A stretch of 64,000 nt of DNA from Thermoanaerobaculia bacterium (GCA_044866315.1 JBIOTX010000233.1:3444-67443); one strand, 5' to 3'. Shown: positions 18,038 through 54,873, counted from the first letter of the stretch. Notes: generated by a model from the sequence alone, not told the origin. Numbers and translations: made by a program.

Positions 18038-18153
18038 TGGACCTCCCGTGATCTCGACGATGAGTGGTGTCGATACGGTAGGCGGGAGCGCGGAGCGCGC
18101 ACAGACTCGGAGGAGGGAGGAGAGAACCCCCCGGAGGAGGGGGGGCGTTGTAG

Positions 18154-18197
18154 GGCGAGCGTCCCGCTCGCCTCGCGCTGGGCGTCCCGCCCAGCGC
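18154..18197. repeat. tandem pair of GC palindromes with GCG-TCC-CGC centres
   Basis: GGCGAGCG-TCC-CGCTCGCC and GCGCTGGGCG-TCC-CGCCCAGCGC sit back to back, between the toxin stop and the RHS start. Confidence 0.7.
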
Positions 18198-18204
18198 TCA
18201 CGCT

Positions 18205-18459
18205 TCAGCTGATCAAACGCTCGTACTCGTCGTGCGTGCCGATCCAGAACCACACGATGCCCTTGGGCGAGTCTTTACCAAGCGCTCGGTGAGCGCCATC
18301 GATCCGAACGGACCAGTAGTCGCCGACCCTTTTGAAGTGAAGCGAGGGATGCTGGGGATCGGACTTCAGCAGCGCGAAGCTCGCGCGGGCGAGATCCTGA
18401 AGCTCCGGCGAAAGATCATCGAAATGTCGCCAGAACCGCCGAGAGGTGTGATGGCTCAA
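18205..18459 (-). CDS. RelE/ParE-superfamily type II toxin (putative)
   Basis: 84 aa if started at the TTG that overlaps the antitoxin stop (ATTTGA). The pattern HFKRVGDYWSVRIDGAHRALG...IVWFWIGTHDEYERL resembles the RelE/ParE-type toxin pattern as I recall it. Confidence 0.6.
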   Translation of the reverse strand: MSHHTSRRFWRHFDDLSPELQDLARASFALLKSDPQHPSLHFKRVGDYWSVRIDGAHRALGKDSPKGIVWFWIGTHDEYERLIS

Positions 18460-28800: not shown

Positions 28801-29866
28801 CCGACGCCGAGACGATGACGCTGTTGTCGAAGGCCCCGGCGGAGTCGATCGTGGCCGTGACGATGATGTCCTGGGTGTTGTTGGGGTTCATCGAGGCGAT
28901 GGTGCAGGGCAGGGCCGAGCAGCCGTCGCTCACGCTGGTGATGGTCAGGTTCGTCGGCGTGTCGGTCACCTGAATGTTGGTCGCCACCGACGGGCCGGCG
29001 TTGGAGACCTGGATCAGGTAGGTCACGGAATCACCGGGCTGGAACGGACCGCCGCTCTGCAGCGACTTGACCACCGAGACGTCCGCCCCCGTGGCCTCGC
29101 CGCCGTTGCCGCTGCTGTCGGTGTTGTTGCTCTCGTCGGGATCCGGGCGGTCGTTGGTAACGGAGGCGGCGTTGTCGAACGCTCCCGCCGCATCGATGGT
29201 CGCGGTGACGGTAATGGTCGTGCTGTTGCCGGAGAGGAGGGCGAAGAAGCTGCACGGGAGCGCGGAGCAGCCCGCGCCGCTGACGCCCGTGATCGTCAGA
29301 TTCGTCGGCGTGTCGGTGACGACGACATTGATCGCGTGCGAGGGGCCGGCGTTGGCGATGGCCAGGGTGTATTGGATCGACTGGCCCGGCGTGTAGGGCC
29401 CGGCGGTGTCCAGGGTCTTGGTGATCGACAGGTCGGTGGAGTGCGTGGAGGTGCCGCCGTTGCCCGTGTCGTCGGTGTTGTTGGACGGGTCCGGGTCGGG
29501 CTCGTCGGCGAAGGCGCTGACGTGGTAGTCGAAGGCGCCGGTCACGGCGATCCGCGCCGTGACGTTGATGGTCGCGCTCGCGCCCGAGGCGAGGCTGGCG
29601 ATCATGCAAGGGAACGAGCTGCACGCGCCGGACACGCTGAGGGTGTTCAGGTTGAAAGTGTCACGGTCGACGTCGATGTTGGTGGCCGTCGACGGCCCGG
29701 CGTTGGACACCACGATCGTGTACTGGAGCTCATCGTTGAAGACGTACGGGCCGGGCGTGTCGAGGGTCATGTCGATCGACACGTCCGCGTCCGCGGCGGC
29801 CGGCGAGGCGATCAGGAAGAGGGCGGCAACGAAGAGCGCAAACGCACCGCGGGTGGCAGGATGCAT
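25835..29866 (-). CDS. secreted DUF11-type repeat protein (11 tandem units of about 119 aa)
   Basis: The start MHPATRGAFALFVAALFLIASPAAA is preceded by GGGAGGG. Each unit has the pattern K(T/S)L....GP(Y/F).PG..(V/I).Y.L.V.N.GPS.A.N..V.D.P.NL.I...SG.GC.A.PC. This is the conserved-repeat-domain (DUF11) pattern as I recall it. Confidence 0.85.
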   Translation of the reverse strand: MHPATRGAFALFVAALFLIASPAAADADVSIDMTLDTPGPYVFNDELQYTIVVSNAGPSTATNIDVDRDTFNLNTLSVSGACSSFPCMIASLASGASATINVTARIAVTGAFDYHVSAFADEPDPDPSNNTDDTGNGGTSTHSTDLSITKTLDTAGPYTPGQSIQYTLAIANAGPSHAINVVVTDTPTNLTITGVSGAGCSALPCSFFALLSGNSTTITVTATIDAAGAFDNAASVTNDRPDPDESNNTDSSGNGGEATGADVSVVKSLQSGGPFQPGDSVTYLIQVSNAGPSVATNIQVTDTPTNLTITSVSDGCSALPCTIASMNPNNTQDIIVTATIDSAGAFDNSVIVSASEMDTDLSNNTDDTGNGGDTAPSADVAVVKSIVTEGPYVQGHTVEFQTVVSNNGPSTATNIVVTDTPIGVTITSVSGAGCTAFPCTIPTLASGASETVTYSATINNPGSFDNSTSVDADELDPDTSNNSDPFGNGGVASNAVDVAITKTLDTAGPYAPGQTITYTLVVSNAGPGVALFAVVDDTPTNLTITGVSGSGCSAFPCTLVPGLTPGSSRTITVTATINSSGAFDNAATATPRSSDVDDDPSNNTDDTGNGGTTSADLAVAKSITTPTPYHQGDTVSFETVVTNNGPSDATNIVVTDTPIGVNLVAGSVSGAGCTAFPCTIPSLASGASATITYSGTIQNPGAFDNSTSVDADEYDHDTSNNSDPFGNGGVAQNTVDVAIAKTLDTPGPYTPGQTVTYTLVVSNTGPGVALFVVVTDNPTNLTITSVSGAGCSAFPCTLVPGLTPTPSSNRTITVTATIDAAGPFDNSATATPRSSDYDPDLSNNNASAGGVAASADVSVVKTLQSGGPFQPGDSVTYLIQVSNAGPSVATDIQVTDLPTNLTITGVSDGCSALPCTLASLNPNNTQDIIVTATIDAIGDFDNSVTVSAAEPDPDSSNNTDDTGNGGTTAPRADVAVAKSITTAAPYIQGQTVSFQTVVTNNGPDTATNVVVTDTPIGVNIVSGSVSGAGCTAFPCTIPTLASGASATITYSATIQNPGAFDNSTSVDADEFDPDTSNNSDPFGNGGVASNSVDLAITKTLDTAGPYVPGQTITYTLVVSNAGPGVALFAVVNDTPTNLTITSVSGAGCSAFPCTLIPGVTPTPASNRTITVTATIDGPGTFDNVATVTPRSSDVDPDLSNNTDATGNGGTVETTADLDLSMDYSPANPGQNDDVTYTLVLTNNGPLAATSVVVTDDLPDDADFVSASSTQGTCTGTDPVVCSIGTLVSGGSATMTIVVETPGNYSALTNTATATADQLDPTPASASATFNCMKTKKGVLKPCN

Positions 29867-30145
29867 GAGGTCCCTCCCGGTTGTAGCTCGAATTGTGGAT
29901 TGGCTGACCGAGGGGGATTTTGCCACGAAGTGCGTGTAAGGAACGTAAAAGTTGCCGGGTGGGCGGGCGGCGGGTGGGCCGAATCATTTAATCCGATCAT
30001 CGATCACTTTCAATCGTCCTCCGGATGAGATTGATCCCGGGCACTCGACAAAGAGCAGGGACATGACCGACCCTTGCACGGAGTCGTTCGTCGAGCAGCC
30101 CCGCGAGGGCGTGGCCGTGTACGACGAGGCCAGGAGACGAAACGG

Positions 30146-43948: not shown

Positions 43949-44043
43949 GCAAAGATTACATTCTTGTCTCTAGCGGCATTTCCATTGCCAACCTACATTG
44001 ATGCGCTCACGCAGATCCGCAACTGCGCTTTCGGAGGTTGACG

Positions 44044-45879
44044 ATGCCGGCCACCTACGGCAACTCGTACGATGTAGTTCTACTCGGTTCGGGCATCGGT
44101 GGGTCGATGCTGGCGTGCATTCTGGCGAAGCACGGCCTGTCCACGCTGCTCATCGAGGAGCTCTCGCATCCCAGGTTCGCCATCGGCGAGTCGCTCATCC
44201 CGGAGACCGGCGTGCGCCTGCGCATCCTCGCGGAGAAGCACGGCGTGCCGGAGATCGGCTGGGTCGGCAGCTTCCACGCTCTGCGCGACAACGTCAGCGC
44301 CGCGTGCGGCGTGAAGCGCTCCTTCTCGTTCATGTACCACCGGGCCGGCGAGCGCCATCGCGCCGAGGAGACCAACCAGCTCCCGACGCTCACGCCGCCG
44401 TTCGGACCGGACTCGCATCTCTTCCGCCAGGACGTCGACGGCTACCTGGCCTCGATGGCGGTGAAGTACGGTGCGCACTTCCGCCAGCAGGTGAAGATCG
44501 CGAAGATCGAGTTCCAGCCGGACCAGGTGCGGCTCACCACCGACAAGGGCGAGGAGATCCGCGCCGCGTTCCTCATCGACGCCGGCGGCATGCGCTCGCA
44601 CATGGCCACGCAGTTCAACCTGCGCGATCCGGAGCCGCGCTTCAAGACCAACACCCGCGCGCTCTACACGCACATGATGGACGTGAGGCCGGCCGACCTC
44701 CTGGTCGAGGGCAATCACGGCCTCCCCTCCCCCCTCGGCCAGGCCACCATGCATCACATCTTCGACGGCGGCTGGATCTGGATCATCCCCTTCAACAACC
44801 ACCGCGAGTCGACGAACCCGCTGACCAGCGTCGGGATGATGCTCGACCGCCGCAAGTACCCGACGCCCGAGGGCTCGCCGGAAGAGGAGTTCCGCCGCAT
44901 CATCAGCCGCTTCCCGACCATCCGGAAGCACTTCGCCGACGCCCGCCCGGTGCGGCCGTGGGTCGGCAGCGGGCGCATTCAGTACTCGCAGGCGCACTGC
45001 ATCGGCCCGCGCTGGATCCAGCTCCCGCACGCGGCGAACTTCGTCGACCCGCTCTTCTCCAGCGGCCTCTCCGTGCTCACCGTGGCCGTCGACCTGATGG
45101 CCGACGCGCTGCTGCGCGCCTTCGCCGACAACGACTTCGCCGTGGAGCGCTTCCAGCGCGTCGAGGACGTGGTCAACACCGGCTTCGACCACTACGACCT
45201 CATCGTCCACAAGTCCTTCGACTCCTTCGCCAGCTACGACCTCTGGAACGCCTGGAACCGCAACTGGGTAATGGGCAACTTCCTGGGCACGTTCGGCGCG
45301 TTCAAGATGCTCCTCGAGTACCTGCGCACCGGCGAACCGCGGTTCCTGGAGAAAACCACCGAGCCGGGACGCATCGGTGTGCTCAGCAGCCACCTGCCCG
45401 AGGTGCGCGCGGCCATGGATGCCTCGGCGAGCGACATCGAAGAGGCCCTGGCGGGGCGGATGATGCATTCCGAGGCCAGCGCGCGGATCTTCGCCCGCCT
45501 CGGCGGTCTGAAGTTCCTGCCGAAGTACATGGGCTTCGGCGATCCGTCCCATCGCGCGCCGTCGACGTTCACGCTGCAGACCGGCGCGCGCCACGTGCTC
45601 TGGTATCGCTATCAGGGCGACAAGAAGTGGCGCGACTACGCGAGCTTCAGCCTCCTCACCTACGCCCGGCAGGTCCTCGGGTTCATGGCCCGTGAGACGG
45701 GCGACTCCGCGCGCCGCTTCCGCACCGCCGTGCGCGACGTCTTCTTCGCCGGGAACGAGGACTGGCACTACACGCCGAACGCGCTGCGCGCGCACGGCCG
45801 GTATCACCTGCCCTTCGAGGCGGACAGCGCGGCGGACGAGGCGATCGAAGCTCCGGCCATCCAGCACGCAACAAAATGA
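44044..45879 (+). CDS. flavin-dependent halogenase
   Basis: GGAGG lies 6 nt upstream of the ATG at 44044. It has GxGxxG (LLGSGIGGS), the halogenase-specific WxWxIP (GGWIWIIPF), and the Fx.Px.Sx.G motif (FVDPLFSSGLS). Confidence 0.8.
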   Translation: MPATYGNSYDVVLLGSGIGGSMLACILAKHGLSTLLIEELSHPRFAIGESLIPETGVRLRILAEKHGVPEIGWVGSFHALRDNVSAACGVKRSFSFMYHRAGERHRAEETNQLPTLTPPFGPDSHLFRQDVDGYLASMAVKYGAHFRQQVKIAKIEFQPDQVRLTTDKGEEIRAAFLIDAGGMRSHMATQFNLRDPEPRFKTNTRALYTHMMDVRPADLLVEGNHGLPSPLGQATMHHIFDGGWIWIIPFNNHRESTNPLTSVGMMLDRRKYPTPEGSPEEEFRRIISRFPTIRKHFADARPVRPWVGSGRIQYSQAHCIGPRWIQLPHAANFVDPLFSSGLSVLTVAVDLMADALLRAFADNDFAVERFQRVEDVVNTGFDHYDLIVHKSFDSFASYDLWNAWNRNWVMGNFLGTFGAFKMLLEYLRTGEPRFLEKTTEPGRIGVLSSHLPEVRAAMDASASDIEEALAGRMMHSEASARIFARLGGLKFLPKYMGFGDPSHRAPSTFTLQTGARHVLWYRYQGDKKWRDYASFSLLTYARQVLGFMARETGDSARRFRTAVRDVFFAGNEDWHYTPNALRAHGRYHLPFEADSAADEAIEAPAIQHATK

Positions 45880-47315
45880 CTGGAAAACCGCAACTTCGTT
45901 GGCGCGGGATCTTTCGAGACCTGCCGCGCGAGCACGGCTATGAGCCGCTGCGCGTCGAGGGAACGCTTCCCGGCGACCTCGAGGGCGTGCTCTATCGCTG
46001 CGGTCCGGCGCGCTTTTCCATCGGCGGCGAGCCGTACCTGCACTGGTTCGACGCCGACGGCGCGGTGAGCGCCGTGCGCGTCGGGCGCGGGGCCGCCGTG
46101 GGCGCGGTGCGCACGGTGGAGACGCGCTGGCTGCGCAAGGAGCGCGCGGCCAACCGCCAGCTCTATCGCAGCTACGCCCAGCTCGGCCGCGGCTGGCGGC
46201 GCTGGCTCACGCTGCCGAAGAACCCCGCGAATATCTCCGTGCTGCCGTACGAGGGACAGGCGCTCGCGCTCTGGGAAGCGGGCCTGCCGATCGCGCTCGA
46301 TCCGGCGACGCTGGACACGCGCGGCGAGACCGACCTGGACGGGCGCATTGGGCCGACGTTCTCCGCACATCCACATTCCGCGGCCGGCCGGCTGTTCAAC
46401 TTCGGCGTCCGCTACGGACGGCGCTTCTCGCTCGATCTGTACGCCTTGGGTGGGATGCCGCGCCGCATCGCTTCGGTGCCGCTGCCGCGCCCGACGATCA
46501 TCCACGACTTCATCGTCACCTCGCGCCACGCGATCTTCTTCTGCGCGCCGATCCGCCTCCGCCTCGGCCGCCTGCTCGCCGGCATGCACAGCTTCAACGA
46601 CAACCTGGCCTGGGAGCCGGAGCACGGCACGGAAGTCGTGGTCGTGCCGCTGGCGACGCCGGACAAGCCCGTGCGCTTCCCCGTGCACCCGTTCTTCCAG
46701 TGGCACTTCGTGAACGCGTGGGAGCAGGGCGGCGCGCTCCTCGTCGATCACATCCCCTACGACGACTTCGAGACCAACGCCTGGTTCGGCCGCGCGCCGT
46801 ACGCGCCGCCCACCGCCCCGCCCCCGTCGCGCTACGCGCGCACGCGCATCGAGCTGTCCTCGAAGCGCATGGTCACCGAGGTGCTCTCGGACATGACCTC
46901 GTGCGAGTTCCCGGCCATCCATCCGAACGACGCGGGGCTCCCCCACCGCAACGTCTGGCTGCTCTGCGACGGGCTGCCGTCGACGCTGCGCTGCTTCGAT
47001 CCGAAGACGCGCACCGTGCGCACGGTGCCCCTCGGCGCCGAGACCGTCCCGAGCGAGCCGACCGTCGTGCCGCGCGCGGGCCATCCCGACGGCTGGGTGC
47101 TCAGCCTGGTCTACGACGGCACGCGGGACGCGAGCTACGTCGCGGTCATCGACGGCGCGCGCCCCGAGGACGGGCCCGTGGCCCGGCTCTGGTTCGACCA
47201 CGCTATTCCCTTTCCCTTTCACGGCGCGTGGGCCTGCCCTGAGCGAAGCCGAAGGGACGCCGTGAATGAAACGTTTGTCGATCGATCCGCACTATCCGGA
47301 GGTAATCAGTCATGA
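45876..47315 (+). CDS. carotenoid-cleavage oxygenase family (RPE65/NOV-like) dioxygenase
   Basis: ATGA overlap with the halogenase gene. Four His-containing motifs are spaced as in CCOs (FSAHPH, IIHDFIVT, FFQWHFVNAW, FPFHGAW). A tail of about 30 aa follows the last motif. Confidence 0.85.
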   Translation: MTGKPQLRWRGIFRDLPREHGYEPLRVEGTLPGDLEGVLYRCGPARFSIGGEPYLHWFDADGAVSAVRVGRGAAVGAVRTVETRWLRKERAANRQLYRSYAQLGRGWRRWLTLPKNPANISVLPYEGQALALWEAGLPIALDPATLDTRGETDLDGRIGPTFSAHPHSAAGRLFNFGVRYGRRFSLDLYALGGMPRRIASVPLPRPTIIHDFIVTSRHAIFFCAPIRLRLGRLLAGMHSFNDNLAWEPEHGTEVVVVPLATPDKPVRFPVHPFFQWHFVNAWEQGGALLVDHIPYDDFETNAWFGRAPYAPPTAPPPSRYARTRIELSSKRMVTEVLSDMTSCEFPAIHPNDAGLPHRNVWLLCDGLPSTLRCFDPKTRTVRTVPLGAETVPSEPTVVPRAGHPDGWVLSLVYDGTRDASYVAVIDGARPEDGPVARLWFDHAIPFPFHGAWACPERSRRDAVNETFVDRSALSGGNQS

Positions 47316-50300
47316 CGACCCCGATCGCCATCGTCGGCGCCGCCTGCCGATATCCCGATGCGTCCTCCCCGTCCGAGCTGTGGGAGAACGTCCTCGCCCA
47401 GCGCCAGTCCTTCCGGAGAATGCCTTCGGAGCGCCTGTCGCTCGAGGACTACTACTCCCCCGACCCGAACGCGCCGGGCTGCACGTACTCGCAGAACGCC
47501 GCGCTGATCACGAACTGGACGTTCGACCGCTCCAGGTACCGCGTGTCGCGCTCCACGTTCGATGCGACCGACCTCGCACACTGGCTGGCTCTCGAGGTCG
47601 CGGATGCCGCTCTGCAGGACGCCGGCTTCGAGCCGCCCGCGGACACGACCGGCGTGATCCTCGGCAACACCCTCACCGGCGACAGCTCGCGCGCCGCGTC
47701 GCTGCGCCTGCGCTGGCCGTACGTCCGCCGCGCCGCGATCAACGCCGGCGCGTCGGATGAGGTGCTGGCGAAGCTCGAGGAGGAGTTCAACGCGCCGTTC
47801 CCGGAGATCGGCGAGGACACCCTCGCCGGCGGACTGTCGAACACCATCGCCGGCCGCATCTGCAACTTCTTCGGCTTCCACGGCGGCGGCTACACCGTCG
47901 ACGGCGCCTGCTCCTCGTCGCTGATCTCGATCATCCACGCCTGCAACTCGCTGGCGTCCGGCGACCTCGACGTCGCCCTGGCCGGCGGCGTCGACCTCAG
48001 CCTCGATCCGTTCGAGCTGATCGGCTTCGCGAAAGCCACGGCCCTCGCGAAAGAGCGCATGTTCGTGTACGACCGGAAGGCGAACGGCTTCCTCCCGGGC
48101 GAAGGCTGCGGCTTCGTGGTGCTGATGCGCCAGGACGACGCGCTCGAGCAGGGCCGCCGCATCTACGCGACGCTCCTCGGCTGGGGCATGTCCTCCGATG
48201 GCCACGGCGGCATGACCCGCCCCGAGGCCAGCGGACAGCGGCTCGCGCTGCAGCGTGCGTATCAGAAAGCCGGGATCCCGATCGACTCCGTGACGCTGTT
48301 CGAAGGCCACGGCACCGGCACCCCGGTCGGCGATCCGATCGAGATCTCCACCGTGCGCTCGCTGCTGCAGTCCGCGAACGGACACCCGCACTTCATCGGC
48401 TCGGTGAAGGCGAACATCGGCCACACCAAGGCCGCCGCGGGCATCGCGGGCCTCATCAAGTCGATGATGGCCGTGCACCACGGCGTCATCCCCCCGATCA
48501 CCGCCTGCGACGAGCCGCGCGACGTCGCTCCGCTGCAGGTCGCCCAGACCGCGCTCCCCTGGCCCGACGACATCCCCCGCCGCGCCGCCGTCAGCGCCAT
48601 GGGCTTCGGCGGCATCAACACCCACGTGGTGCTCGAAGGTGGAGGACAGGCAATCCTGCCTGTCCCTGCGCGGCGCCGTTATGAAGCAGAGCTGTTCCTC
48701 TTCGGCTCCAACAACATCGAAGACCTCCAGACCACCCTGCGCGCCGTCGCCGCCCGCGCCGCCGAGCTCTCCCTCGCCGAGCTGACCGACCTCTCCGCCG
48801 CCCTGCGCGCGCGCATCACCGGCCGCGCCTACCGCGCCGCGATCGTCGCCTCCACGCCGCAGGAGCTCGCCGCCGCCGCGGCCAACACCGCCGCGTTCGG
48901 CGTGCCGCGCCGTCCGAAGATCGCCTTCCTCTTCTCCGGCCAGGGCTCGATCCCGAACGTGACCACCGACGTCGCCCAGCCGGCGATCGTGAAGGCCTCG
49001 GTCGCGCGCCTCAAGGACCTGCACCGCCTCGGCATTCACGCCCACTGCACGATCGGCCACTCCCTCGGCGAGCTGACCGCGCTGTACTGGAGCGGGGCGC
49101 TCGACGAGCAGCAGCTGATCGACCTGGCCACCTTCCGCGGCGAGGCCATGCAGCAGCTCGCCGGCGACGGCGGCATGGCCGCGTTGTCCTGCGATGAGAA
49201 TGAGGCCCGCACGCTGCTCGAAGACGGCGTCGTGGTCGCCGCCCTCAACGGACCGCGCCAGACCGTCATCGCCGGACACGGACCGGCCATCGATCGCATC
49301 ATCGACCGCGCCAAGGCCCGCGACATCGGCGCGACGCGCGTGCCCGTCGCCGCCGCCTTCCACTCGCCGATGATGGTCCCCGCCGCCGCGCCGCTGCGCG
49401 ACTACGTCGGCCGGCTCGGCGCGAAGCGCGTCGGCCGCGGCGTCTTCTCCACCGTCACCGGCGACTGGCTGCATCACGACGCGCCGCTGCCGGACCTGCT
49501 GGCCACGCAGCTCACCCTGCCCGTGCGCTTCCGCGAGGCCATCGAGGCCATCGCCCATGAAGCCGATCTCCTCATCGAAGTCGGCCCCGGCCGCGTGCTG
49601 ACCAACCTCGCGTCCTTCGCCTCCGTCCCGGTGGTCTCGTCCGATCGCGTCCTCGACGCCGTCGCCGCCGCCTGGACCGCCGGCGCGGACATCGACGTCG
49701 ACGCCCTGTTCGCGGATCGCTTCTACCGCCCCTTCGATCTCGACGCCCGCCCGACCTTCATCGAGTCGCCCACCGAAAAGTTTCGGAGTGCGGCGGCAAA
49801 GCCGCCGCTTTCCAATCGCCCCGCTCCGGTCACCAAACCGAAGCCCGAGGCTCCTTCCGGCACGACTCTCCGCGAGCTCGTAGCGAAGCACGTCGATCTG
49901 TCCTTGGACCTCGTCCTCCCGACGTCCAAGCTCCTCTCCGACCTCCACCTCAGCTCCATCACCGTCGCCCGTCTCCTCGCTGACGCTGCACGGGCCATGG
50001 GCGTCCCGCCGCTCGCCGACCCGACGTCCTTCGCCAACGCGACCATCGAGGAGGCCACCGCGGCACTCGAAGCATTGCGCGGCGTCGAGGCGCCGCCGCC
50101 CGAGCCGCGGCTCCCCGAGGGCGTGGCCAACTGGCTGCGCGCCTTCCGCATCGACGAAGTCCCGGTGCGGTGTAGTGCACGCCTCCGGCGTGCCCCCCAA
50201 TCTGCGTGGAAGATCCTCGGCGACTGGCCCGAGGCCTCGCAGCGCTTCGAGACCGTCCCCGGCCGCGGCATCATCGCCGTCCTCCCGAAGGACGATCCCG

Positions 50301-52600
50301 ACGCCTGCATCCGGCTCCTGCTCGAGACCCGCGCGCTGGCCGAGAAAGAGCGCCTCGTCGTCGTCCAGGAGGCTCCTTGCGGCTCCGGCTTCGCGCGCAC
50401 GCTGTTCATCGAGAAGCCGAACGTCTCCGTCCGCATCGTCAACGTCCCGCGCCTCGACGCCGCGGCGCTGGAGAACGTCGTCGCCGAGGCCGAGGCCACG
50501 GGCGACTTCTGCGAGGCCATGTATGGAGAGGACGGGATTCGCCGCGAGCCGCGCATCGTGGCCGCTGATGTTCGGCGCACTGAGAGTGCGCCGCTCCACG
50601 CTGAGGATGTTCTGCTCGTGACCGGAGGAGGCAAGGGGATCGGCTTCGAGAGTGCGTTCCATCTGGCCAAGACCACCGGCGCCCGCCTCGTGCTCCTCGG
50701 CCGCTCGAAGGACGACGACGAGCTGCGCGCGAACTTCGCGCGCCTCGAGGCGGCCGGCCTGCCGTACGACTACATCGTCGCCGACGTCACCAAGCCGCTG
50801 CCGCGGTTCGAGAAGGTCACCGCGATCCTGCACGCCGCGGGCACGAACCAGCCGGCGTTGCTCGACGCGCTCGACGACAGTGCGTTCCGCGCCGCCACCG
50901 CGCCGAAGCTCGACGGCCTGCGCAACGTGCTGGACGCCGTCGATCCGAACAGGATCAAGCTCCTCATCACCCTCGGCTCGGTCATCGCCCGCACGGGCAT
51001 GCGCGGCGAGGCCCACTACGCGTTCGCCAACGAGTGGCTCGCGCGCAGAACCGAGGAATTCGGAGCGGCGTACCCGCAGTGCAGGGCCGTCTGCATCGAA
51101 TGGAGCGTGTGGTCCGGCATGGGCATGGGCGAGCGCCTCGGCACGATGGACATGCTGCGCCGCCAGGGCATCACGCCCGTCGCGCCGGACGAGGCGGTCG
51201 CGCTCACGTCGAGGCTCGCCGCCGCGCCGCCCGCCGCCCACGTCATGGCCTGCGGCCGCCTCGGCGATCCGCCGACCATCCGCTTCGCCGACGAGCCGCC
51301 TCCGCTCTATCGCTTCCTCGAGCAGCCGCGCGTCTCCATCCCCGGCGTGGAAGTCATCGCCGATGCCGAGGTGTCGCTGCGGAACGATCCGTACCTCGAG
51401 GACCACGCCTTCAGCGGCGAGCCGCTGCTGCCGGCGGTCATGGGCCTCGAGGCCATGGCCCAGCTCGCGCGCACGGTCTCGGACGAGCTGCCGGTGCGCA
51501 TCGACCGCGTCGAGCTGCTGCATCCGGTGACGCTGGCCACGGTCCGCGTCGCTGCGCTGCAGCGCGGCGGCGAAGTCGACGTCGCCATCCGCACATCGTC
51601 CACCCAGTTCCGGCTCGATCACTTTCGGGCCACGGTTACAGTCGGCGAGCGTCCGGCGCGGCCGCGCATCGCCATCGCTGAAGGCAGCGTCGACCTCGAG
51701 CCGGAGCGCGACCTTTACGGGCCGCTGCTCTTCCACACCGGCCGCTTCCGCGGCGTGCGCCGCTATCGCCGTCTCACCGCCACCGAGTGCGTGGCCGAGA
51801 TCGCGCCGCACCGGGAGTCGCTCTTCCATCGCTACCTCCCCTCCACGCTGCTCCTCGGCGACGCCACCATCCGCGACGCCGCGATCCACGCGCTGCAGGG
51901 CTGCGTGCCCCAGGCGACCGTGCTTCCGGCCGGCATCGACGCGGTCGAGCTCTTCGCGCCTGTCGATGGCGAGACCATCGTCGTCGCGCGCGAGATCTCG
52001 CGCAGTGCGGAGGGCTTCGTCTACGACGTCGACATCGCCGCGCCCGACGGGCAGCTCTTCGAGCGCTGGCATGGCCTCAGGCTCCAGATCGTCGCCTGCC
52101 GCGAGCGCGTCGACGACCTCGCTCCCGCGCTCTGGGCGCCGTTCCTCGAGCGCGAGGTGGGCGTCTCCGTCCGCGTCGCGGCGGCCGAGGAGACGGTGCT
52201 GCATCGCCATGACGGCAAGCCCCTCGCCGCGCACGGACACATCTCCCGCTCGCACGACACCGACGCCGGGGTCACCCTCGCCGTCGCGCACCACACGCCG
52301 GTCGGCGTCGACGTGCAGACCGTGGGCGACCATCCGTGGGACGACATCATCGGCTCGCACGACGGGCCGCTGACCGACGTCTGCATCCGCCTCTCCGGCG
52401 ACGAGCGCCCGCACGCCGCGGCGCGCGTCTGGTCGGCCCGGGAGTCGATGAAGAAGCTCTCCGGCGACGCACTCGTGCCTCTCGTTGTCGACGACGCCGG
52501 CACCCACGGGAGGGTCACCTTCCGCTCCGGCCCGCATCGCATCGACACGTATCTGATGCGCGACTGCGTCGTGGCCGTGGCCCGGGAGAGGAGCGCCTGA
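47312..52600 (+). CDS. PksE-type iterative type I polyketide synthase (KS-AT-ACP-KR-DH-PPTase)
   Basis: 1762 aa, with GGAGG upstream and an ATGA overlap with the CCO gene. Domain motifs:
- KS: DGACSSSL, EGHGTGT, NIGHTKAAAG.
- AT: FLFSGQGS, GHSLGE.
- ACP-like: LSDLHLSSITVARLL.
- KR: VTGGGKGIG.
- DH: LEDHAFSGEPLLP.
- PPTase-like C-terminus: HDGKP...GVDVQ.
The N-terminus (IAIVGAACRYPDASSPSELWENV) closely resembles enediyne PKS sequences as I recall them. Confidence 0.9.
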   Translation: MTTPIAIVGAACRYPDASSPSELWENVLAQRQSFRRMPSERLSLEDYYSPDPNAPGCTYSQNAALITNWTFDRSRYRVSRSTFDATDLAHWLALEVADAALQDAGFEPPADTTGVILGNTLTGDSSRAASLRLRWPYVRRAAINAGASDEVLAKLEEEFNAPFPEIGEDTLAGGLSNTIAGRICNFFGFHGGGYTVDGACSSSLISIIHACNSLASGDLDVALAGGVDLSLDPFELIGFAKATALAKERMFVYDRKANGFLPGEGCGFVVLMRQDDALEQGRRIYATLLGWGMSSDGHGGMTRPEASGQRLALQRAYQKAGIPIDSVTLFEGHGTGTPVGDPIEISTVRSLLQSANGHPHFIGSVKANIGHTKAAAGIAGLIKSMMAVHHGVIPPITACDEPRDVAPLQVAQTALPWPDDIPRRAAVSAMGFGGINTHVVLEGGGQAILPVPARRRYEAELFLFGSNNIEDLQTTLRAVAARAAELSLAELTDLSAALRARITGRAYRAAIVASTPQELAAAAANTAAFGVPRRPKIAFLFSGQGSIPNVTTDVAQPAIVKASVARLKDLHRLGIHAHCTIGHSLGELTALYWSGALDEQQLIDLATFRGEAMQQLAGDGGMAALSCDENEARTLLEDGVVVAALNGPRQTVIAGHGPAIDRIIDRAKARDIGATRVPVAAAFHSPMMVPAAAPLRDYVGRLGAKRVGRGVFSTVTGDWLHHDAPLPDLLATQLTLPVRFREAIEAIAHEADLLIEVGPGRVLTNLASFASVPVVSSDRVLDAVAAAWTAGADIDVDALFADRFYRPFDLDARPTFIESPTEKFRSAAAKPPLSNRPAPVTKPKPEAPSGTTLRELVAKHVDLSLDLVLPTSKLLSDLHLSSITVARLLADAARAMGVPPLADPTSFANATIEEATAALEALRGVEAPPPEPRLPEGVANWLRAFRIDEVPVRCSARLRRAPQSAWKILGDWPEASQRFETVPGRGIIAVLPKDDPDACIRLLLETRALAEKERLVVVQEAPCGSGFARTLFIEKPNVSVRIVNVPRLDAAALENVVAEAEATGDFCEAMYGEDGIRREPRIVAADVRRTESAPLHAEDVLLVTGGGKGIGFESAFHLAKTTGARLVLLGRSKDDDELRANFARLEAAGLPYDYIVADVTKPLPRFEKVTAILHAAGTNQPALLDALDDSAFRAATAPKLDGLRNVLDAVDPNRIKLLITLGSVIARTGMRGEAHYAFANEWLARRTEEFGAAYPQCRAVCIEWSVWSGMGMGERLGTMDMLRRQGITPVAPDEAVALTSRLAAAPPAAHVMACGRLGDPPTIRFADEPPPLYRFLEQPRVSIPGVEVIADAEVSLRNDPYLEDHAFSGEPLLPAVMGLEAMAQLARTVSDELPVRIDRVELLHPVTLATVRVAALQRGGEVDVAIRTSSTQFRLDHFRATVTVGERPARPRIAIAEGSVDLEPERDLYGPLLFHTGRFRGVRRYRRLTATECVAEIAPHRESLFHRYLPSTLLLGDATIRDAAIHALQGCVPQATVLPAGIDAVELFAPVDGETIVVAREISRSAEGFVYDVDIAAPDGQLFERWHGLRLQIVACRERVDDLAPALWAPFLEREVGVSVRVAAAEETVLHRHDGKPLAAHGHISRSHDTDAGVTLAVAHHTPVGVDVQTVGDHPWDDIIGSHDGPLTDVCIRLSGDERPHAAARVWSARESMKKLSGDALVPLVVDDAGTHGRVTFRSGPHRIDTYLMRDCVVAVARERSA
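49785..49810 (+). repeat. REP-like GC palindrome copy 2, embedded in frame in the PKS AT-ACP linker
   Basis: GGAGTGCGGCGGCAAAGCCGCCGCTT encodes ...FRSAAAKPPLS.... It matches the reverse complement of 9027-9052 at 25 of 26 positions. Confidence 0.75.
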
Positions 52601-53181
52601 TGTACCTCGGAGACGTCGAGCACCGGCACGCGCAGAGCCCGTGGGGCTTCGCCGCGGAGGCCATGACCGCGGCCGGGATTCCCGTGCCGCAGATCATGCA
52701 CCTCTTCAACTTCAAGCCCGACCGCACGAAGTTTCTGGCCATGTTCACTCAGGAGGTCATGCGCGGTCCGTCGCCGCTCACGCCCGGGCAGCGCGAGCTC
52801 ATCGCCGCATTCACGTCGCGGATGAGGGACTGCGTGTTCTGAACCGGCGCGCACGCCGCGGTCGCGGCGAAGCTGCTGGAGGATGAGGAGATGGTGAAGT
52901 CGGTCCTGGATGACTATCGAAGCGCGCCGATCGACGCGAAGTTCGCGGCCCTGCTCGTGCTGATCGAGAAGGCCGCGCGCAAGGCGGCCAGCGTGACCCG
53001 TGAAGACGTCGACGCCGTGCGCGCCGCCGGCTGGACGGACGAGTCCATCTACGACGCCATCACCGTCTGCGCGCTCTTCAATTTCTACACGACCTGGGTC
53101 GACGCTTCGGGCGTCGCCGGCATGGACGACTACTCGGCATCCGGACACCGGATGGCCACGGAGGGGTATCTGCGCTCATGA
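52600..53181 (+). CDS. AhpD/CMD-family peroxidase-related protein, candidate selenoprotein (in-frame UGA at 52840-52842)
   Basis: Track ORFs 52336..52842 and 52891..53181 are in the same frame, and the only stop between them is that TGA. The joined sequence reads ...GPSPLTPGQRELIAAFTSRMRDCVF[TGA]TGAHAAVAAKLL...WTDESIYDAITVCALFNFYT.... This places the TGA at the second Cys of the family's CxxCxxxH motif. The start ATG at 52600 overlaps the PKS stop as TGATG. Confidence 0.7.
52854..52869 (+). promoter_or_regulatory. candidate bacterial SECIS hairpin
   Basis: CGCCGCG-GT-CGCGGCG can also be drawn as a 5-bp stem with a CGGTCG loop. It begins 11 nt after the UGA and has G/U in the apical loop. This position and shape are typical of bacterial SECIS elements. 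Confidence 0.55.
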
Positions 53182-53597
53182 GGTACTACGAGTACATGCA
53201 CACCGTCGGCTTCCAGGAGACGAACCTCATCGGGAACGTCTACTACGTCCACTATCTCTCCTGGCAGGGCCGCTGCCGGGAGATGTTCCTCCACGACCAC
53301 GCGCCGGGCGTGCTCGACGACATCGCGAGCGGCCTCAAGCTGGCCACCGTGCGCGTGAACTGCGAGTATGAGGAGGAGCTCCTGGCCTTCGACCGCGTGG
53401 CCGTGCGCATGACCCTCGGCACGCTCAAGCCGAGCGGGATGACCCTGCGCTTCACCTACGTCAAGGTGGGCGAAGACCGCGAGACCATCGCCGCCCGCGG
53501 GGAGATGGAGATCGCCTGCCTGCGCGGCACGGCGATGGTGCCCGTGCCGGACGAGCTGCGCGAGGCGCTACGGCCCTACCGGGAACAGGCGGCGTGA
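53178..53597 (+). CDS. hot-dog fold (4HBT-type) thioesterase, PksE-partner type
   Basis: 139 aa, with an ATGA overlap with the upstream gene. YYEYMHTVGFQETNLIGNVYYVHYLSWQGRCREMFL is as I recall the N-terminus of the SgcE10/CalE7/DynE7 class. Confidence 0.85.
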   Translation: MRYYEYMHTVGFQETNLIGNVYYVHYLSWQGRCREMFLHDHAPGVLDDIASGLKLATVRVNCEYEEELLAFDRVAVRMTLGTLKPSGMTLRFTYVKVGEDRETIAARGEMEIACLRGTAMVPVPDELREALRPYREQAA

Positions 53598-53598
53598 C

Positions 53599-54873
53599 AT
53601 GAGCGCGCTCGCCATCACCCTCCTGCAGATCATCGTCATCGTGATCTGCGGGCGCGCGCTCGGCGCGCTGATGAAACGCCTCGGCCAACCCGCGGTGGTC
53701 GGCGAGATCGCCGCAGGGATCCTCCTCGGTCCGTCAGCGTTCGGCGCGTTCGCGCCAGGCACGTTCGCGCGGGTGTTTCCGGCGGCGAGCCTGCCGACGC
53801 TCCAGTCGCTCAGCCAGATCGGCCTGATCCTGTTCATGTTCCTGGTGGGCCTCCAGTTCGCGCCGGAGCTGTTCCGCGAGCGCAAGCACACGGTGGTCGT
53901 GATCAGTCACAGCAGCATCATCGTGCCGTTCCTGCTCGGCACGGCGCTGGCGCTCTGGCTCTACCCGCGCGTGTCCGATCCCGGCACGAGCTTCCGCAGC
54001 TTCTCCCTCTTCCTCGGCACGGCCATGAGCATCACCGCCTTCCCGGTGCTGGCCCGCATCCTCGAGGACAAGAACTTACTGACGACGAAAATGGGCAACA
54101 ACGTCATCGCCTGCGCGGCGGTGGACGACGTCACGGCGTGGTGCATCCTCGCCTTCGTCGTTGCGCTCGTGCGCGCGGAAAGCACGACCCATCTCGTGGT
54201 CCGGCTGGCCCTGGTCGCGCTGTACGTCCTGGCGATGATCTTCCTCGTTCGCCCGCTGCTGAAGAAGCTCCCACGGGTGAACGAGACCGTCTTCGCCGGA
54301 ATCCTGCTCTTCGTCTTCGCCTCGGCCTGGACGACCGAGCTCCTCCACATCCACGCCCTCTTCGGCGCCTTCCTGGCCGGGGCGATCATGCCCAAGGAGG
54401 CCCAGCTCAGCGAGACCTTGGTCGGTCAGCTGCGCGGCCTGACCACGGTGGTCTTCCTGCCGCTGTTCTTCGCCGTCGCCGGCCTCAACATGAACATCGG
54501 CCTGCTCCGGACGCCGGAGCTCTGGCTCGCCTGCGGGCTCGTGCTCCTGGTGGCCATTGCCGGCAAGTTCGGCGGGGCGACGCTCAGCGCGGCCGCGGTG
54601 GGGATGCCCTGGCGCGACGCCACGGCCATCGGCGTGCTGATGAACACGCGCGGCCTCATGGAGCTGGTCGTCCTGAACATCGGCCTGGAGATCGGCGTGA
54701 TCTCCCGGCCGCTCTACACGATGTGCGTGATCATGGCCCTGGTGACGACGGCGATGACGACGCCGCTGCTCGAATGTCTTCGAGCATCATCTCTACTCGA
54801 TCGCGATGCGTCCGATGCGACACGATCGCCACGCGAATCACGAAGCGCCCGTCCGGCAGCGTCGCCGGGGTGA
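53599..54873 (+). CDS. CPA2-family cation/H+ antiporter
   Basis: It starts 1 nt after the TE stop. The N-terminus LLQIIVIVICGRALGALMKRLGQPAVVGEIAAGILLGPS and about 12 hydrophobic segments are typical of Kef/NapA-type exchangers. Confidence 0.85.
   Translation: MSALAITLLQIIVIVICGRALGALMKRLGQPAVVGEIAAGILLGPSAFGAFAPGTFARVFPAASLPTLQSLSQIGLILFMFLVGLQFAPELFRERKHTVVVISHSSIIVPFLLGTALALWLYPRVSDPGTSFRSFSLFLGTAMSITAFPVLARILEDKNLLTTKMGNNVIACAAVDDVTAWCILAFVVALVRAESTTHLVVRLALVALYVLAMIFLVRPLLKKLPRVNETVFAGILLFVFASAWTTELLHIHALFGAFLAGAIMPKEAQLSETLVGQLRGLTTVVFLPLFFAVAGLNMNIGLLRTPELWLACGLVLLVAIAGKFGGATLSAAAVGMPWRDATAIGVLMNTRGLMELVVLNIGLEIGVISRPLYTMCVIMALVTTAMTTPLLECLRASSLLDRDASDATRSPRESRSARPAASPG

What the first reader, a model, noticed from the sequence alone, without database searches (positions are those of the whole stretch)
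52600..53181. Hidden selenoprotein candidate: an AhpD-like gene split by one in-frame TGA at the CxxC position, with a SECIS-like hairpin
The ORF track shows two small ORFs, 52336..52842 and 52891..53181. They are in the same frame, and the 48 nt between them contain no other stop.

Read through, the protein is a full-length peroxidase-related (AhpD/CMD) family member. The TGA at 52840-52842 falls in DCVF[TGA]TGAH. That is the second Cys of the family's redox motif CxxCxxxH, giving CxxU.

Eleven nt downstream lies a GC hairpin, CGCCGCG-GT-CGCGGCG at 52854-52869, with G/U at its apex. This is the expected place and shape for a bacterial SECIS. TGA is otherwise used as a normal stop in this window, so recoding would be local.

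AhpD-like selenoproteins are known from other bacteria. One embedded between a PksE and its thioesterase is unusual.
Basis: partly seen in the sequence, partly recalled or inferred. Interest (0 to 1): 0.85.

Follow-up and report, generated by a model that had tools for sequence, protein, structure and literature searches.

The report
Selenoprotein AhpD gene inside PKS operon
The two small ORFs are one gene for a selenocysteine-containing AhpD-like redox protein of a family known since 2005; the only less ordinary point is that it sits, repeatedly in related soil bacteria, between an enediyne-type polyketide synthase and its thioesterase.

Summary
One 193-codon gene (52600-53181) has a single in-frame TGA at 52840-52842, at the second Cys of the AhpD motif E-x11-C-x2-C-x3-H. 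A 7-bp G+C hairpin with a GU apex follows 11 nt downstream.

Comparison with relatives shows this is a real selenoprotein gene, not a pseudogene or an error.
- The same TGA column occurs in at least 120 species genomes from five or more phyla, and in all 120 closest database relatives. Each continues in frame.
- The hairpin forms fully in 101/121 Sec-forms but 2/118 Cys-forms.
- Its pairs covary at synonymous codon positions (G:C 76, A:U 24, no mixed forms).

AhpD-like CxxU selenoproteins (TIGR01926/COG2128) were described in 2005, so this is a new member of a known kind.

Its position is less ordinary. It is translationally coupled between PksE and its thioesterase. The same arrangement, with TGA and SECIS, recurs in at least two other clusters read directly. 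One of these is a canonical enediyne cassette whose PKS is only 56% identical. Six more contigs are inferred to share it. Two close relatives lack the gene.

The organism is probably a Thermoanaerobaculia (Acidobacteriota) MAG. Its Sec machinery could not be checked.

The parts
52600..53181 (+). Complete AhpD-like (TIGR01926) selenoprotein gene: 193 codons including Sec81, plus the stop codon
   Evidence: Read-through translation. TIGR01926 at 88.1 bits (cutoff 81.8) and Pfam CMD. 55-62% identical over its full length to Sec-form homologues and 82% to L251.
52840..52842 (+). UGA codon read as selenocysteine (Sec81), at the second position of the C78-x-x-U81 redox motif
   Evidence: The same column is TGA in at least 120 species genomes. 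It is Cys in Cys-form homologues and in PDB 2pfx, 3c1l and 2prr.
52854..52869 (+). Bacterial SECIS core: a 7-bp stem (CGCCGCG / CGCGGCG) with a GU apex, 11 nt after the UGA. It lies within the codons for H-A-A-V-A-A.
   Evidence: All 7 pairs form in 101/121 Sec-forms against 2/118 Cys-forms, and the apex is GU in 106/121 against 20/118. 97.3% of cells are paired, 4 pairs show compensatory changes, and 0/500 shuffles reach this. RNAalifold finds the core. Synonymous-site covariation gives p = 1e-23.
52795..52854 (+). Active-site segment encoding E66...C78-V-F-U81-T-G-A-H85, the AhpD proton-relay spacing E-x11-C-x2-C-x3-H
   Evidence: E66, C78 and H85 are invariant in alignment A1. The spacing is identical to MtAhpD E118/C130/C133/H137 and PA0269 E36/C48/C51/H55 (PMC3141380).
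47312..52600 (+). PksE-type iterative type I PKS (KS-AT-KR-DH with a C-terminal PPTase-like tail). Its stop overlaps the AhpD start codon.
   Evidence: Pfam domains listed. Homologues are named 'enediyne polyketide synthase' by JGI. The overlap is seen.
53178..53597 (+). Hot-dog (4HBT_2) thioesterase, partner of PksE. Its ATG overlaps the AhpD stop codon.
   Evidence: Pfam 4HBT_2. It directly follows PksE in relatives that lack the AhpD gene.
44038..47315 (+). Upstream operon genes: an FAD-dependent Trp-halogenase-like protein (44038-45879) and an RPE65-family carotenoid-type oxygenase (45876-47315)
   Evidence: Pfam families. The same pair precedes PksE in L251, L252 and L254.
53599..54873 (+). 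Na+/H+ exchanger-family membrane protein immediately downstream of the thioesterase
   Evidence: Pfam Na_H_Exchanger. It is also present in L251 and L252.

Best explanation
Positions 52600-53181 are a single gene for a 193-residue AhpD-like (TIGR01926, 'peroxidase-related') selenoprotein.

Recoding (inferred from the canonical bacterial mechanism). During translation, the hairpin at 52854-52869 would be bound by SelB-GTP-Sec-tRNA(Sec). This hairpin is a 7-bp G+C stem with a GU apex, 11 nt after the UGA. SelB then delivers selenocysteine to UGA 52840-52842 in place of termination. Elsewhere in the window TGA remains an ordinary stop.

Protein chemistry (inferred by homology). The product carries the AhpD proton-relay active site E66...C78-x-x-U81-x3-H85, with Sec in place of the second Cys. 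It most likely acts as a selenol/thiol oxidoreductase. Sec81 would attack an oxidised substrate (a hydroperoxide or a disulfide), and Cys78 would resolve the adduct as a selenenylsulfide.

Operon context (shown). The gene is translationally coupled between an enediyne-type PKS (PksE) and its thioesterase, in an operon with a halogenase-like flavoprotein and an RPE65-type oxygenase. This placement recurs in related clusters.

Local role (inferred, low confidence). It probably serves redox protection or processing of the oxidation-prone conjugated polyene made by PksE and the thioesterase.

Shown here: gene integrity, family membership, position of the TGA, a Sec-form-specific covarying hairpin, and a recurrent operon position. 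Inferred: actual Sec insertion in this organism, the catalytic cycle, and the role in the pathway.
For: 1. Family and column. TIGR01926 scores 88.1 bits (cutoff 81.8) and Pfam CMD matches. The TGA aligns with the second Cys of CxxCxxAH in homologues and in PDB 2pfx (E = 9e-18), 3c1l and 2prr. The spacing E-x11-C-x2-U-x3-H equals the AhpD proton relay.

2. A conserved TGA.
- All 125 tblastn alignments that cover the column (these loci plus L001, L002, L005 and L006) are homologous AhpD genes with a stop at that column. Nearly all stay open for about 112-125 more codons.
- Two metagenomic homologues annotated with 'W' there have TGA in their DNA.
- All 120 closest relatives of the N-terminal fragment are gene calls truncated at about 80-83 aa.

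3. The SECIS hairpin.
- The stem is complete in 101/121 Sec-forms against 2/118 Cys-forms picked by the same flanking pattern.
- The apex is GU in 106/121 against 20/118.
- Mean MFE is -16.0 against -12.0 kcal/mol (p = 1e-15).
- 97.3% of cells are paired, 4 pairs have compensatory changes, 0/500 shuffles reach this, and slid controls give 27-80%.
- Among sequences encoding the identical HAAVAA peptide, 90/101 Sec-forms against 0/6 Cys-forms form the full stem. The Ala and Val wobble bases covary as G:C 76, A:T 24, with no mixed forms (p = 1e-23).

4. Not an error or recent decay. The same TGA is found in independent assemblies L001 (98.6% identical) and L002 (99.6%). There are no differences in the 339 nt after the TGA, although PKS third codon positions differ by 4.7%.

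5. Literature. AhpD-like CxxU selenoproteins are established (PMC1088965, PMC2398784, PMC13188914). Acidobacteria are documented Sec users (PMC1794560).

6. Operon position. ATGA/TGATG overlaps occur at both ends of the gene. The same PksE-[TGA-AhpD + SECIS]-TE arrangement is found in L251 and L253.
Against: - The Sec machinery (selA, selB, selD, tRNA-Sec) of this genome could not be examined. None is in the window.
- The hairpin alone folds no better than shuffled sequence (z = -0.48), and no Rfam family matches it.
- All the evidence is comparative. There are no protein-level data.
- The covariation counts are not corrected for phylogeny.
- Two related PksE operons (L252, L254/L255) lack the gene. 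It is therefore not essential to the PKS/TE chemistry, which weakens any pathway-specific role.
Confidence: 0.9

Rival explanations
1. A relic selenoprotein gene. The gene descends from Sec-forms, but this organism has lost Sec decoding, so UGA terminates and only an 80-aa fragment is made (with perhaps a separate 96-aa product from ATG 52891).
For: Sec machinery was not seen and could not be tested. Gene callers annotate two ORFs. An ATG exists at 52891.
Against: The SECIS is perfectly intact (7/7 pairs, GU apex). The post-TGA half has no stop or frameshift, keeps the family's conserved residues, and shows no substitutions between strains where neutral sites differ by about 4.7%. The same state is seen in all close relatives. 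A related Thermoanaerobaculia MAG (L059) carries the same Sec-form.
Confidence: 0.05
2. An ordinary pseudogene. A recent nonsense mutation (TGC to TGA) inactivated a Cys-form AhpD gene.
For: TGC to TGA is a single base change. The hairpin alone is not statistically unusual in G+C-rich DNA.
Against: The TGA is ancestral, not recent. It is shared by at least 120 species and by all 120 nearest relatives. It comes with a Sec-form-specific, covarying hairpin that Cys-forms lack even when they encode the same peptide.
Confidence: 0.02
3. A sequencing or assembly error created the in-frame stop.
For: The source is a metagenome-assembled contig.
Against: The TGA and its context are identical in three independent assemblies from different projects (window, L001 from ENA, L002 from an NCBI MAG). 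The same is true of dozens of homologues.
Confidence: 0.01
4. Genome-wide reassignment of TGA (genetic code 4 or 25), so that TGA encodes Trp or Gly here.
For: Some metagenomic gene callers translated the homologous TGA as W.
Against: TGA is the commonest stop of well-supported genes in the window, including PksE and the thioesterase. The column is Cys, not Trp or Gly, in homologues. The 'W' calls are on contigs of about 1 kb and most likely come from automatic choice of a code-4 model (my inference).
Confidence: 0.005

Closest known systems
AhpD-like selenoprotein family (COG2128 / TIGR01926 'peroxidase-related enzyme', CxxU motif). Zhang, Fomenko and Gladyshev 2005; 'AhpD-like 1' in GOS 2008; listed in the 2026 review PMC13188914.
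   Same: Same HMM family above its cutoff, same CxxU position of Sec, and a small G-containing apical loop just downstream of the UGA.
   Different: Nothing about the protein or the recoding differs. The operon position between PksE and its thioesterase was not found for this family in the papers searched.
NCBIfam NF041238 AhpD_rel_CFYUT, 'alkylhydroperoxidase-related (seleno)protein' ('hypothetical protein 1' of the Sargasso Sea)
   Same: The C-[FV]-[YF]-U-T motif has Sec at the same second position.
   Different: It scores only 44.6 bits against a cutoff of 175, and matches only the C-terminal part of a 357-position model. The window protein is not a member.
Mycobacterium tuberculosis AhpD and P. 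aeruginosa PA0269 (structurally characterised AhpD-like proteins)
   Same: Identical proton-relay spacing, Glu-x11-Cys-x2-Cys-x3-His, on a helix-turn-helix core (PMC3141380).
   Different: Sec replaces the second Cys. Sequence identity outside the core is low. No AhpC partner gene is nearby. The third relay residue (His132/Tyr50) is Phe80 here.
Escherichia coli fdhF SECIS (the canonical bacterial SECIS)
   Same: A hairpin inside the coding sequence, with an 11-nt spacer after the UGA and G-U exposed at the apex (GGUC loop). These fdhF properties are from my own knowledge (Liu et al. 1998; Fourmy et al. 2002) and were not checked here.
   Different: The stem is shorter and fully G+C. No bulged U is evident. 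Binding to SelB was not tested.
Enediyne PKS cassette PksE plus hot-dog thioesterase (SgcE/SgcE10, CalE8/CalE7 type)
   Same: A PksE with KS-AT-KR-DH domains followed by a 4HBT-type thioesterase. L253 also has DUF1702/UnbL, UnbV and UnbU-like genes.
   Different: In the characterised actinomycete cassettes the thioesterase directly follows PksE (from memory). Here a selenoprotein gene is inserted between them. The window's cluster has no UnbL/UnbV/UnbU genes beside the PKS; a halogenase-like flavoprotein and an RPE65 oxygenase precede PksE instead.

Membership tests
AhpD-like / peroxidase-related enzyme (TIGR01926; Pfam CMD PF02627) | Scores above the curated HMM cutoffs | tested here: met
   TIGR01926 at 88.1 bits against 81.8; PF02627 at 39.6 against 23; TIGR00778 at 27.9 against 27.8. 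The query had Cys in place of Sec.
AhpD-like / peroxidase-related enzyme (TIGR01926; Pfam CMD PF02627) | Catalytic motif Glu-x11-Cys-x2-Cys-x3-His (proton relay) | tested here: met
   E66, C78, U81 (TGA) and H85. E66, C78 and H85 are invariant in A1. The spacing matches MtAhpD and PA0269 and aligns to CxxCxxAH of PDB 2pfx, 3c1l and 2prr.
AhpD-like / peroxidase-related enzyme (TIGR01926; Pfam CMD PF02627) | All-alpha AhpD fold | tested here: inconclusive
   Only sequence homology to solved structures is available (2pfx E = 8.8e-18 over residues 29-171).
AhpD-like / peroxidase-related enzyme (TIGR01926; Pfam CMD PF02627) | Peroxidase or disulfide-reductase activity | not testable with these tools
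   This needs a biochemical assay.
Bacterial selenoprotein (UGA recoded by SECIS and SelB) | In-frame UGA aligned with Cys in homologues, with the reading frame conserved beyond it | tested here: met
Bacterial selenoprotein (UGA recoded by SECIS and SelB) | Stem-loop immediately downstream of the UGA with a small apical loop containing G, conserved in Sec-forms | tested here: met
   A 7-bp stem with a GU apex, 11 nt after the UGA. It is specific to Sec-forms and its pairs covary.
Bacterial selenoprotein (UGA recoded by SECIS and SelB) | Genome encodes selA, selB, selD and tRNA-Sec | not testable with these tools
   None is in the 64-kb window. The phylum is a documented Sec user, and a Thermoanaerobaculia MAG (L059) carries the same Sec-form.
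Bacterial selenoprotein (UGA recoded by SECIS and SelB) | Selenium incorporated into the protein | not testable with these tools
   This needs 75Se labelling or mass spectrometry.
NF041238 AhpD_rel_CFYUT (seleno)protein | Scores above the curated cutoff of 175 bits | tested here: not met
   44.6 bits, a partial match to profile positions 215-338 of 357.
Canonical enediyne minimal cassette (UnbL/E3, UnbV/E4, UnbU/E5, PksE, TE/E10) | All five genes clustered together | tested here: not met
   The window has PksE and the thioesterase, preceded by a halogenase-like flavoprotein and an RPE65 oxygenase. No DUF1702 or UnbV family is listed beside the PKS or among the other window ORFs scanned. L253 and L141 do have the full cassette.

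The most novel reading that the evidence does not exclude
The Sec-containing AhpD-like oxidoreductase is a dedicated, co-inherited component of PksE/thioesterase (enediyne-type polyene) biosynthetic operons in Acidobacteriota-like soil bacteria. On this reading it is a selenoenzyme that acts on, or protects, the nascent conjugated polyene, for example by reducing polyene hydroperoxides or taking part in release or decarboxylation chemistry. I found no report of a selenoprotein built into a polyketide biosynthetic cluster.

Support:
- Translational coupling on both sides of the gene.
- The same insertion in clusters whose PKSs are only 56% identical, including a canonical UnbL-UnbV-UnbU-PksE cassette.
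- A Cys-form paralogue placed next to another such cassette.
- The PKS-linked Sec-forms group together in a tree.

Against: two related operons lack the gene.
Probability: 0.35. Interest if true: 0.6.

Novelty: new member of a known kind. Interest (0 to 1): 0.4.

Why it matters
For annotation. This is a clear example of a selenoprotein gene that every pipeline splits into two 'hypothetical' ORFs, or mistranslates with code 4. The 80-83-aa fragments fill databases: a single 90%-identity cluster holds 53 members, and all 120 nearest cluster representatives are truncated. The very strongly conserved SECIS (CAC GCC GCR GTY GCG GC) would allow automatic rescue of this family across Acidobacteriota, Gemmatimonadota, Planctomycetota, Myxococcota and Chloroflexota.

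For natural-product research. A selenoenzyme conserved between PksE and its thioesterase gives a testable hypothesis about redox handling of the reactive polyene intermediate. It also carries a practical warning. Heterologous expression of such clusters in hosts without a compatible Sec system would silently truncate this protein, and could disturb translation of the thioesterase gene coupled to it.

Tried and rejected
- Single-sequence folding of 52835-52905 was not significant against shuffles (z = -0.48). It cannot decide the question in 67% G+C DNA.
- An Rfam scan of the whole window found only two tRNAs and no SECIS family.
- ARAGORN found no tRNA-Sec in the window or in the 1.66 Mb of fetched loci.
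- I looked for Cys-paralogues inside the 120 Sec-form loci as internal controls and found none. A separate TGY-pattern scan of metagenomes served as the control instead.
- DNA for P0001 (the 335-aa fusion) was not on record, and DNA for P0009 (Ser at the column) was not retrievable.
- The window's own 67,468-bp NCBI contig was never returned by the context look-ups. Organism and genome-wide Sec machinery could therefore only be inferred, from PKS homologue names and synteny with L254.
- tblastn of the window's PKS, thioesterase, RPE65, halogenase and Na/H exchanger against all pattern-derived loci gave no thioesterase hit. The only PKS hits were L141 and weak AT-domain matches. Most family members are therefore not PKS-linked.
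- L059, the nearest GTDB Sec-form, is not in a PKS context: its neighbours include a CotH-family gene and ORFs with no Pfam match.
- Rejected explanations: pseudogene, sequencing error, and a code 4/25 reassignment (see the rival explanations).


Full report
**1. The observation**

- ORFs 52336..52842 and 52891..53181 share a frame.
- The translation of 52336-53181 has a single internal stop.
- The TGA at 52840-52842 lies in ...RMRDCVF*TGAHAAVAAKL...
- The 48 nt up to the ATG at 52891 contain no other stop.

The real start is almost certainly ATG 52600. It overlaps the stop of the 1762-aa PKS (TGATG), and homologues start with M-[YF]-L-x-x-VE at this point. The gene's own stop (53179-53181) overlaps the ATG of the thioesterase (ATGA). 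The read-through product has 193 residues.

The hairpin CGCCGCG-GT-CGCGGCG is at 52854-52869, 11 nt after the TGA. On its own it is not remarkable in this 67% G+C DNA: MFE -26.1 kcal/mol against -24.8 +/- 2.7 for shuffles, z = -0.48. TGA is the commonest ordinary stop of the other well-supported genes in the window.

**2. What the protein is**

With Cys in place of the stop, the protein passes the curated cutoffs of TIGR01926 'peroxidase-related enzyme' (88.1 against 81.8 bits), Pfam CMD, and the AhpD core domain.

It matches solved 'uncharacterized peroxidase-related protein' structures: 2pfx at E = 9e-18, and also 3c1l and 2prr. In those alignments the TGA column is the second Cys of C-x-x-C-x-x-A-H.

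E66, C78 and H85 are invariant among 20 homologues. The spacing E-x11-C-x2-[C/U]-x3-H is that of the AhpD proton relay, as in MtAhpD E118/C130/C133/H137 and PA0269 E36/C48/C51/H55 (PMC3141380).

**3. Is the TGA a selenocysteine codon? Evidence from relatives**

Two metagenomic homologues (56-57% identical) were annotated with 'W' at this column. Their DNA has TGA there, followed by an open frame to full length. The gene caller evidently used genetic code 4 on these contigs of about 1 kb.

I then scanned one genome per GTDB species with a degenerate DNA pattern for R-E-L-I-A-A-x2-S-x4-C-x-[FY]-TGA-x3-H-x-A. By my own estimate the pattern carries about 51 bits against about 2^40 positions, so chance hits are not expected. 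The hits are in:
- Acidobacteriota (Bryobacterales, Terriglobia, Vicinamibacterales, Blastocatellia, Thermoanaerobaculia)
- Gemmatimonadota
- Planctomycetota
- Myxococcota (Corallococcus, Archangium minus, Hyalangium)
- Chloroflexota

A tblastn check across these loci plus L001, L002, L005 and L006 gave 125 alignments covering the column, all AhpD homologues with a stop there. Nearly all stay open for about 112-125 further codons.

All 120 nearest database relatives of the 80-aa N-terminal fragment (65-99% identical) are gene calls of about 80-83 aa. They are truncated at the same codon.

**4. The hairpin is a SECIS**

As a control I ran the same pattern with TGY (Cys) at the column against metagenome contigs, which gave 118 usable Cys-forms.

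| Measure | Sec-forms (n=121) | Cys-forms (n=118) |
|---|---|---|
| All 7 stem pairs form | 101 | 2 (the commonest count is 4) |
| Apex is GU | 106 | 20 |
| Peptide after the His is HAAVAA | 101 | 6 |
| Mean MFE, nt +3 to +45 | -16.0 kcal/mol | -12.0 kcal/mol (p = 1e-15, similar G+C) |

On the gap-free alignment A2 (122 sequences):
- 97.3% of cells pair.
- Four of the seven pairs show compensatory double changes (38 cells).
- 0/500 shuffles reach any of the five measures.
- Sliding the partner strand drops pairing to 27-80%.
- RNAalifold independently predicts the core stem.

Restricting to sequences that encode the identical HAAVAA peptide, 90/101 Sec-forms form the full stem against 0/6 Cys-forms (p = 7e-6). 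A close Cys relative (L127) forms only 4 of 7 pairs.

The wobble bases of the Ala and Val codons that make the innermost pair are G:C in 76 sequences and A:T in 24, and never G:T or A:C (p = 1e-23). Flanking GC3 is similar in the two types. These counts are not corrected for phylogeny. The constraint nevertheless acts on RNA pairing at synonymous sites, and only when the codon is TGA.

The geometry also fits the canonical bacterial SECIS: an 11-nt spacer, a short G+C stem, and G-U at the apex. This matches the E. coli fdhF minimal SECIS as I recall it (from memory). [quoted passage not shown]

**5. Not an error, not decay**

The TGA and the hairpin are identical in two independent assemblies of the same species: an ENA farmland metagenome at 98.6% identity and NCBI MAG GCA_044867665.1 at 99.6%.

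Between the window and L001 the gene has four differences, all before the TGA. There are none in the 339 nt after it, while third codon positions of the adjacent PKS differ by 4.7%.

**6. What could not be shown**

The window has no tRNA-Sec and no sel genes among the ORFs scanned. The rest of the genome was out of reach.

The organism is probably a member of Thermoanaerobaculia (Acidobacteriota).
- The best named PKS homologues (68-76% identical) are all from that class.
- A Thermoanaerobaculia MAG (L254) is syntenic with the window over more than 15 kb.
- A Thermoanaerobaculia MAG (L059) carries the closest GTDB Sec-form.
- Acidobacteria are documented users of Sec (PMC1794560).

I therefore put about 0.9 on genuine Sec insertion. 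The remainder goes mainly to a 'relic gene in a genome that lost Sec decoding' scenario.

**7. Comparison with what is known**

AhpD-like selenoproteins with a CxxU motif (COG2128) were discovered in the Sargasso Sea data in 2005, with 27 sequences (PMC1088965). They were the fourth most abundant selenoprotein family in GOS, with 299 sequences (PMC2398784). The 2026 review lists them as 'AhpD-like protein, TIGR01926, CxxU' (PMC13188914).

The window's gene is a regular member of that family. It is not a member of the related NF041238 'CFYUT' family, where it scores 44.6 bits against a cutoff of 175.

**8. The operon context**

The gene is translationally coupled between a PksE-type PKS (JGI names homologues 'enediyne polyketide synthase') and its hot-dog thioesterase. 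The operon order is halogenase-like flavoprotein, RPE65 oxygenase, PksE, AhpD(Sec), thioesterase, Na/H exchanger.

No thioesterase hit, and no comparable PKS context, turned up among the other 120 Sec-form loci. The position is not unique, however.
- L251 (PKS 78% identical, AhpD 82%) has the same layout, with the TGA and an identical SECIS.
- L253 (PKS only 56% identical, AhpD 63%) has the gene between PksE and the thioesterase of a canonical DUF1702/UnbL, UnbV, UnbU-like, PksE cassette.
- Six further contigs appear to carry both a PksE homologue and a truncated AhpD fragment. This evidence is indirect.
- In L141 a Cys-form CMD gene sits directly upstream of another UnbL-UnbV-UnbU-PksE cassette.
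- In a neighbour-joining tree of 112 Sec-forms, the three PKS-linked genes plus L059 form a clade of four. L059 itself is not PKS-linked.

Conversely, two related operons (L252 with PKS 69% identical, and L254/L255 at 70%) have the thioesterase directly after PksE. The gene is therefore an accessory, not a core, component.

I found no paper that links enediyne or PksE clusters with selenoproteins or AhpD/CMD proteins.

A role in protecting or processing the oxidation-prone conjugated polyene is my inference, and I hold it with low confidence.

**9. Verdict**

The thing itself is a new member of a well-known selenoprotein family. The recurrent placement inside PksE/thioesterase operons is a modestly novel and testable side finding. 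Overall interest is 0.4.

Noticed in passing
L005 126-731; L006 282-953 (proteins P0010, P0011): Public metagenome gene calls translate the Sec-TGA as Trp ('CLFWIGSH'). This is apparently because a code-4 model was chosen on contigs of about 1 kb. Such entries hide selenoproteins as apparent Cys-to-Trp active-site variants.
   Followed up: yes
P0001, P0002, P0007 (about 330 aa; no DNA retrievable); L031 6392-6459 and 6999-7066: Some Terriglobia proteins start with the C-terminal half of an AhpD-like domain, beginning just after where the TGA would be. They continue without a stop into a full Cys-form AhpD domain. This suggests two-domain [Sec-AhpD]-[Cys-AhpD] proteins. A Planctomycetota locus (L031) has two Sec-form motifs about 600 nt apart.
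   Followed up: partly
P0009 (JGI 3300047160; DNA not retrievable): P0009 was the closest full-length homologue in the first search (61% identical). It has Ser (CLFSTGSH) at the Sec/Cys column. This could be a real Sec/Cys-to-Ser variant or another translation artefact.
   Followed up: partly
window 44038-54873; L251, L252, L254: This PksE cluster has no UnbL/UnbV/UnbU genes beside the PKS. Instead it conserves a Trp-halogenase-like flavoprotein and an RPE65-family (carotenoid-cleavage type) oxygenase directly upstream of PksE, usually with a Na/H exchanger downstream. This looks like a non-enediyne use of the PksE/TE polyene, possibly oxidative cleavage of the polyene.
   Followed up: partly
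L141 29-5659 (minus strand): A Cys-form CMD/AhpD-like gene (180 aa) lies immediately upstream of a DUF1702, UnbV, UnbU-like, PksE enediyne-type cassette in a soil metagenome contig. This is a second, different kind of AhpD-PksE linkage.
   Followed up: partly
alignment A2, columns 34-35 (for example L011, L024, L031b, L060): About 10% of Sec-forms encode HAAGAA instead of HAAVAA, which gives a GG rather than a GU apex while keeping the stem. A few (L035, L080, L088) have a divergent sequence after the His and may use a different hairpin.
   Followed up: no
window 52600-53181 compared with L001 9423-10004: All four within-species differences lie in the first 26 nt of the gene, including a double change R9T. 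The remaining 556 nt are identical, which is much more conserved than the neighbouring PKS (105 differences in 5289 nt).
   Followed up: partly
L077 (CAYUAX010000063.1): A MAG labelled 'uncultured Bifidobacteriaceae' carries a Sec-form whose motif region is identical to that of Acidobacteriota locus L048. This is probably a mis-binned or mislabelled contig.
   Followed up: no
window 5528-8002 (-), 9788-18253 (-), 25835-29926 (-): Elsewhere in the window there is a protein-kinase/LanC-like fusion (lanthipeptide-synthetase-like, by the annotation of L250), a 2821-aa ORF that was not characterised, and a 1363-aa DUF11-repeat surface protein.
   Followed up: no
window 52021-53148 (-): A 375-aa antisense ORF spans the whole AhpD gene. 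It fails the codon-position G+C test used for gene calling and looks like a typical high-G+C shadow ORF.
   Followed up: partly
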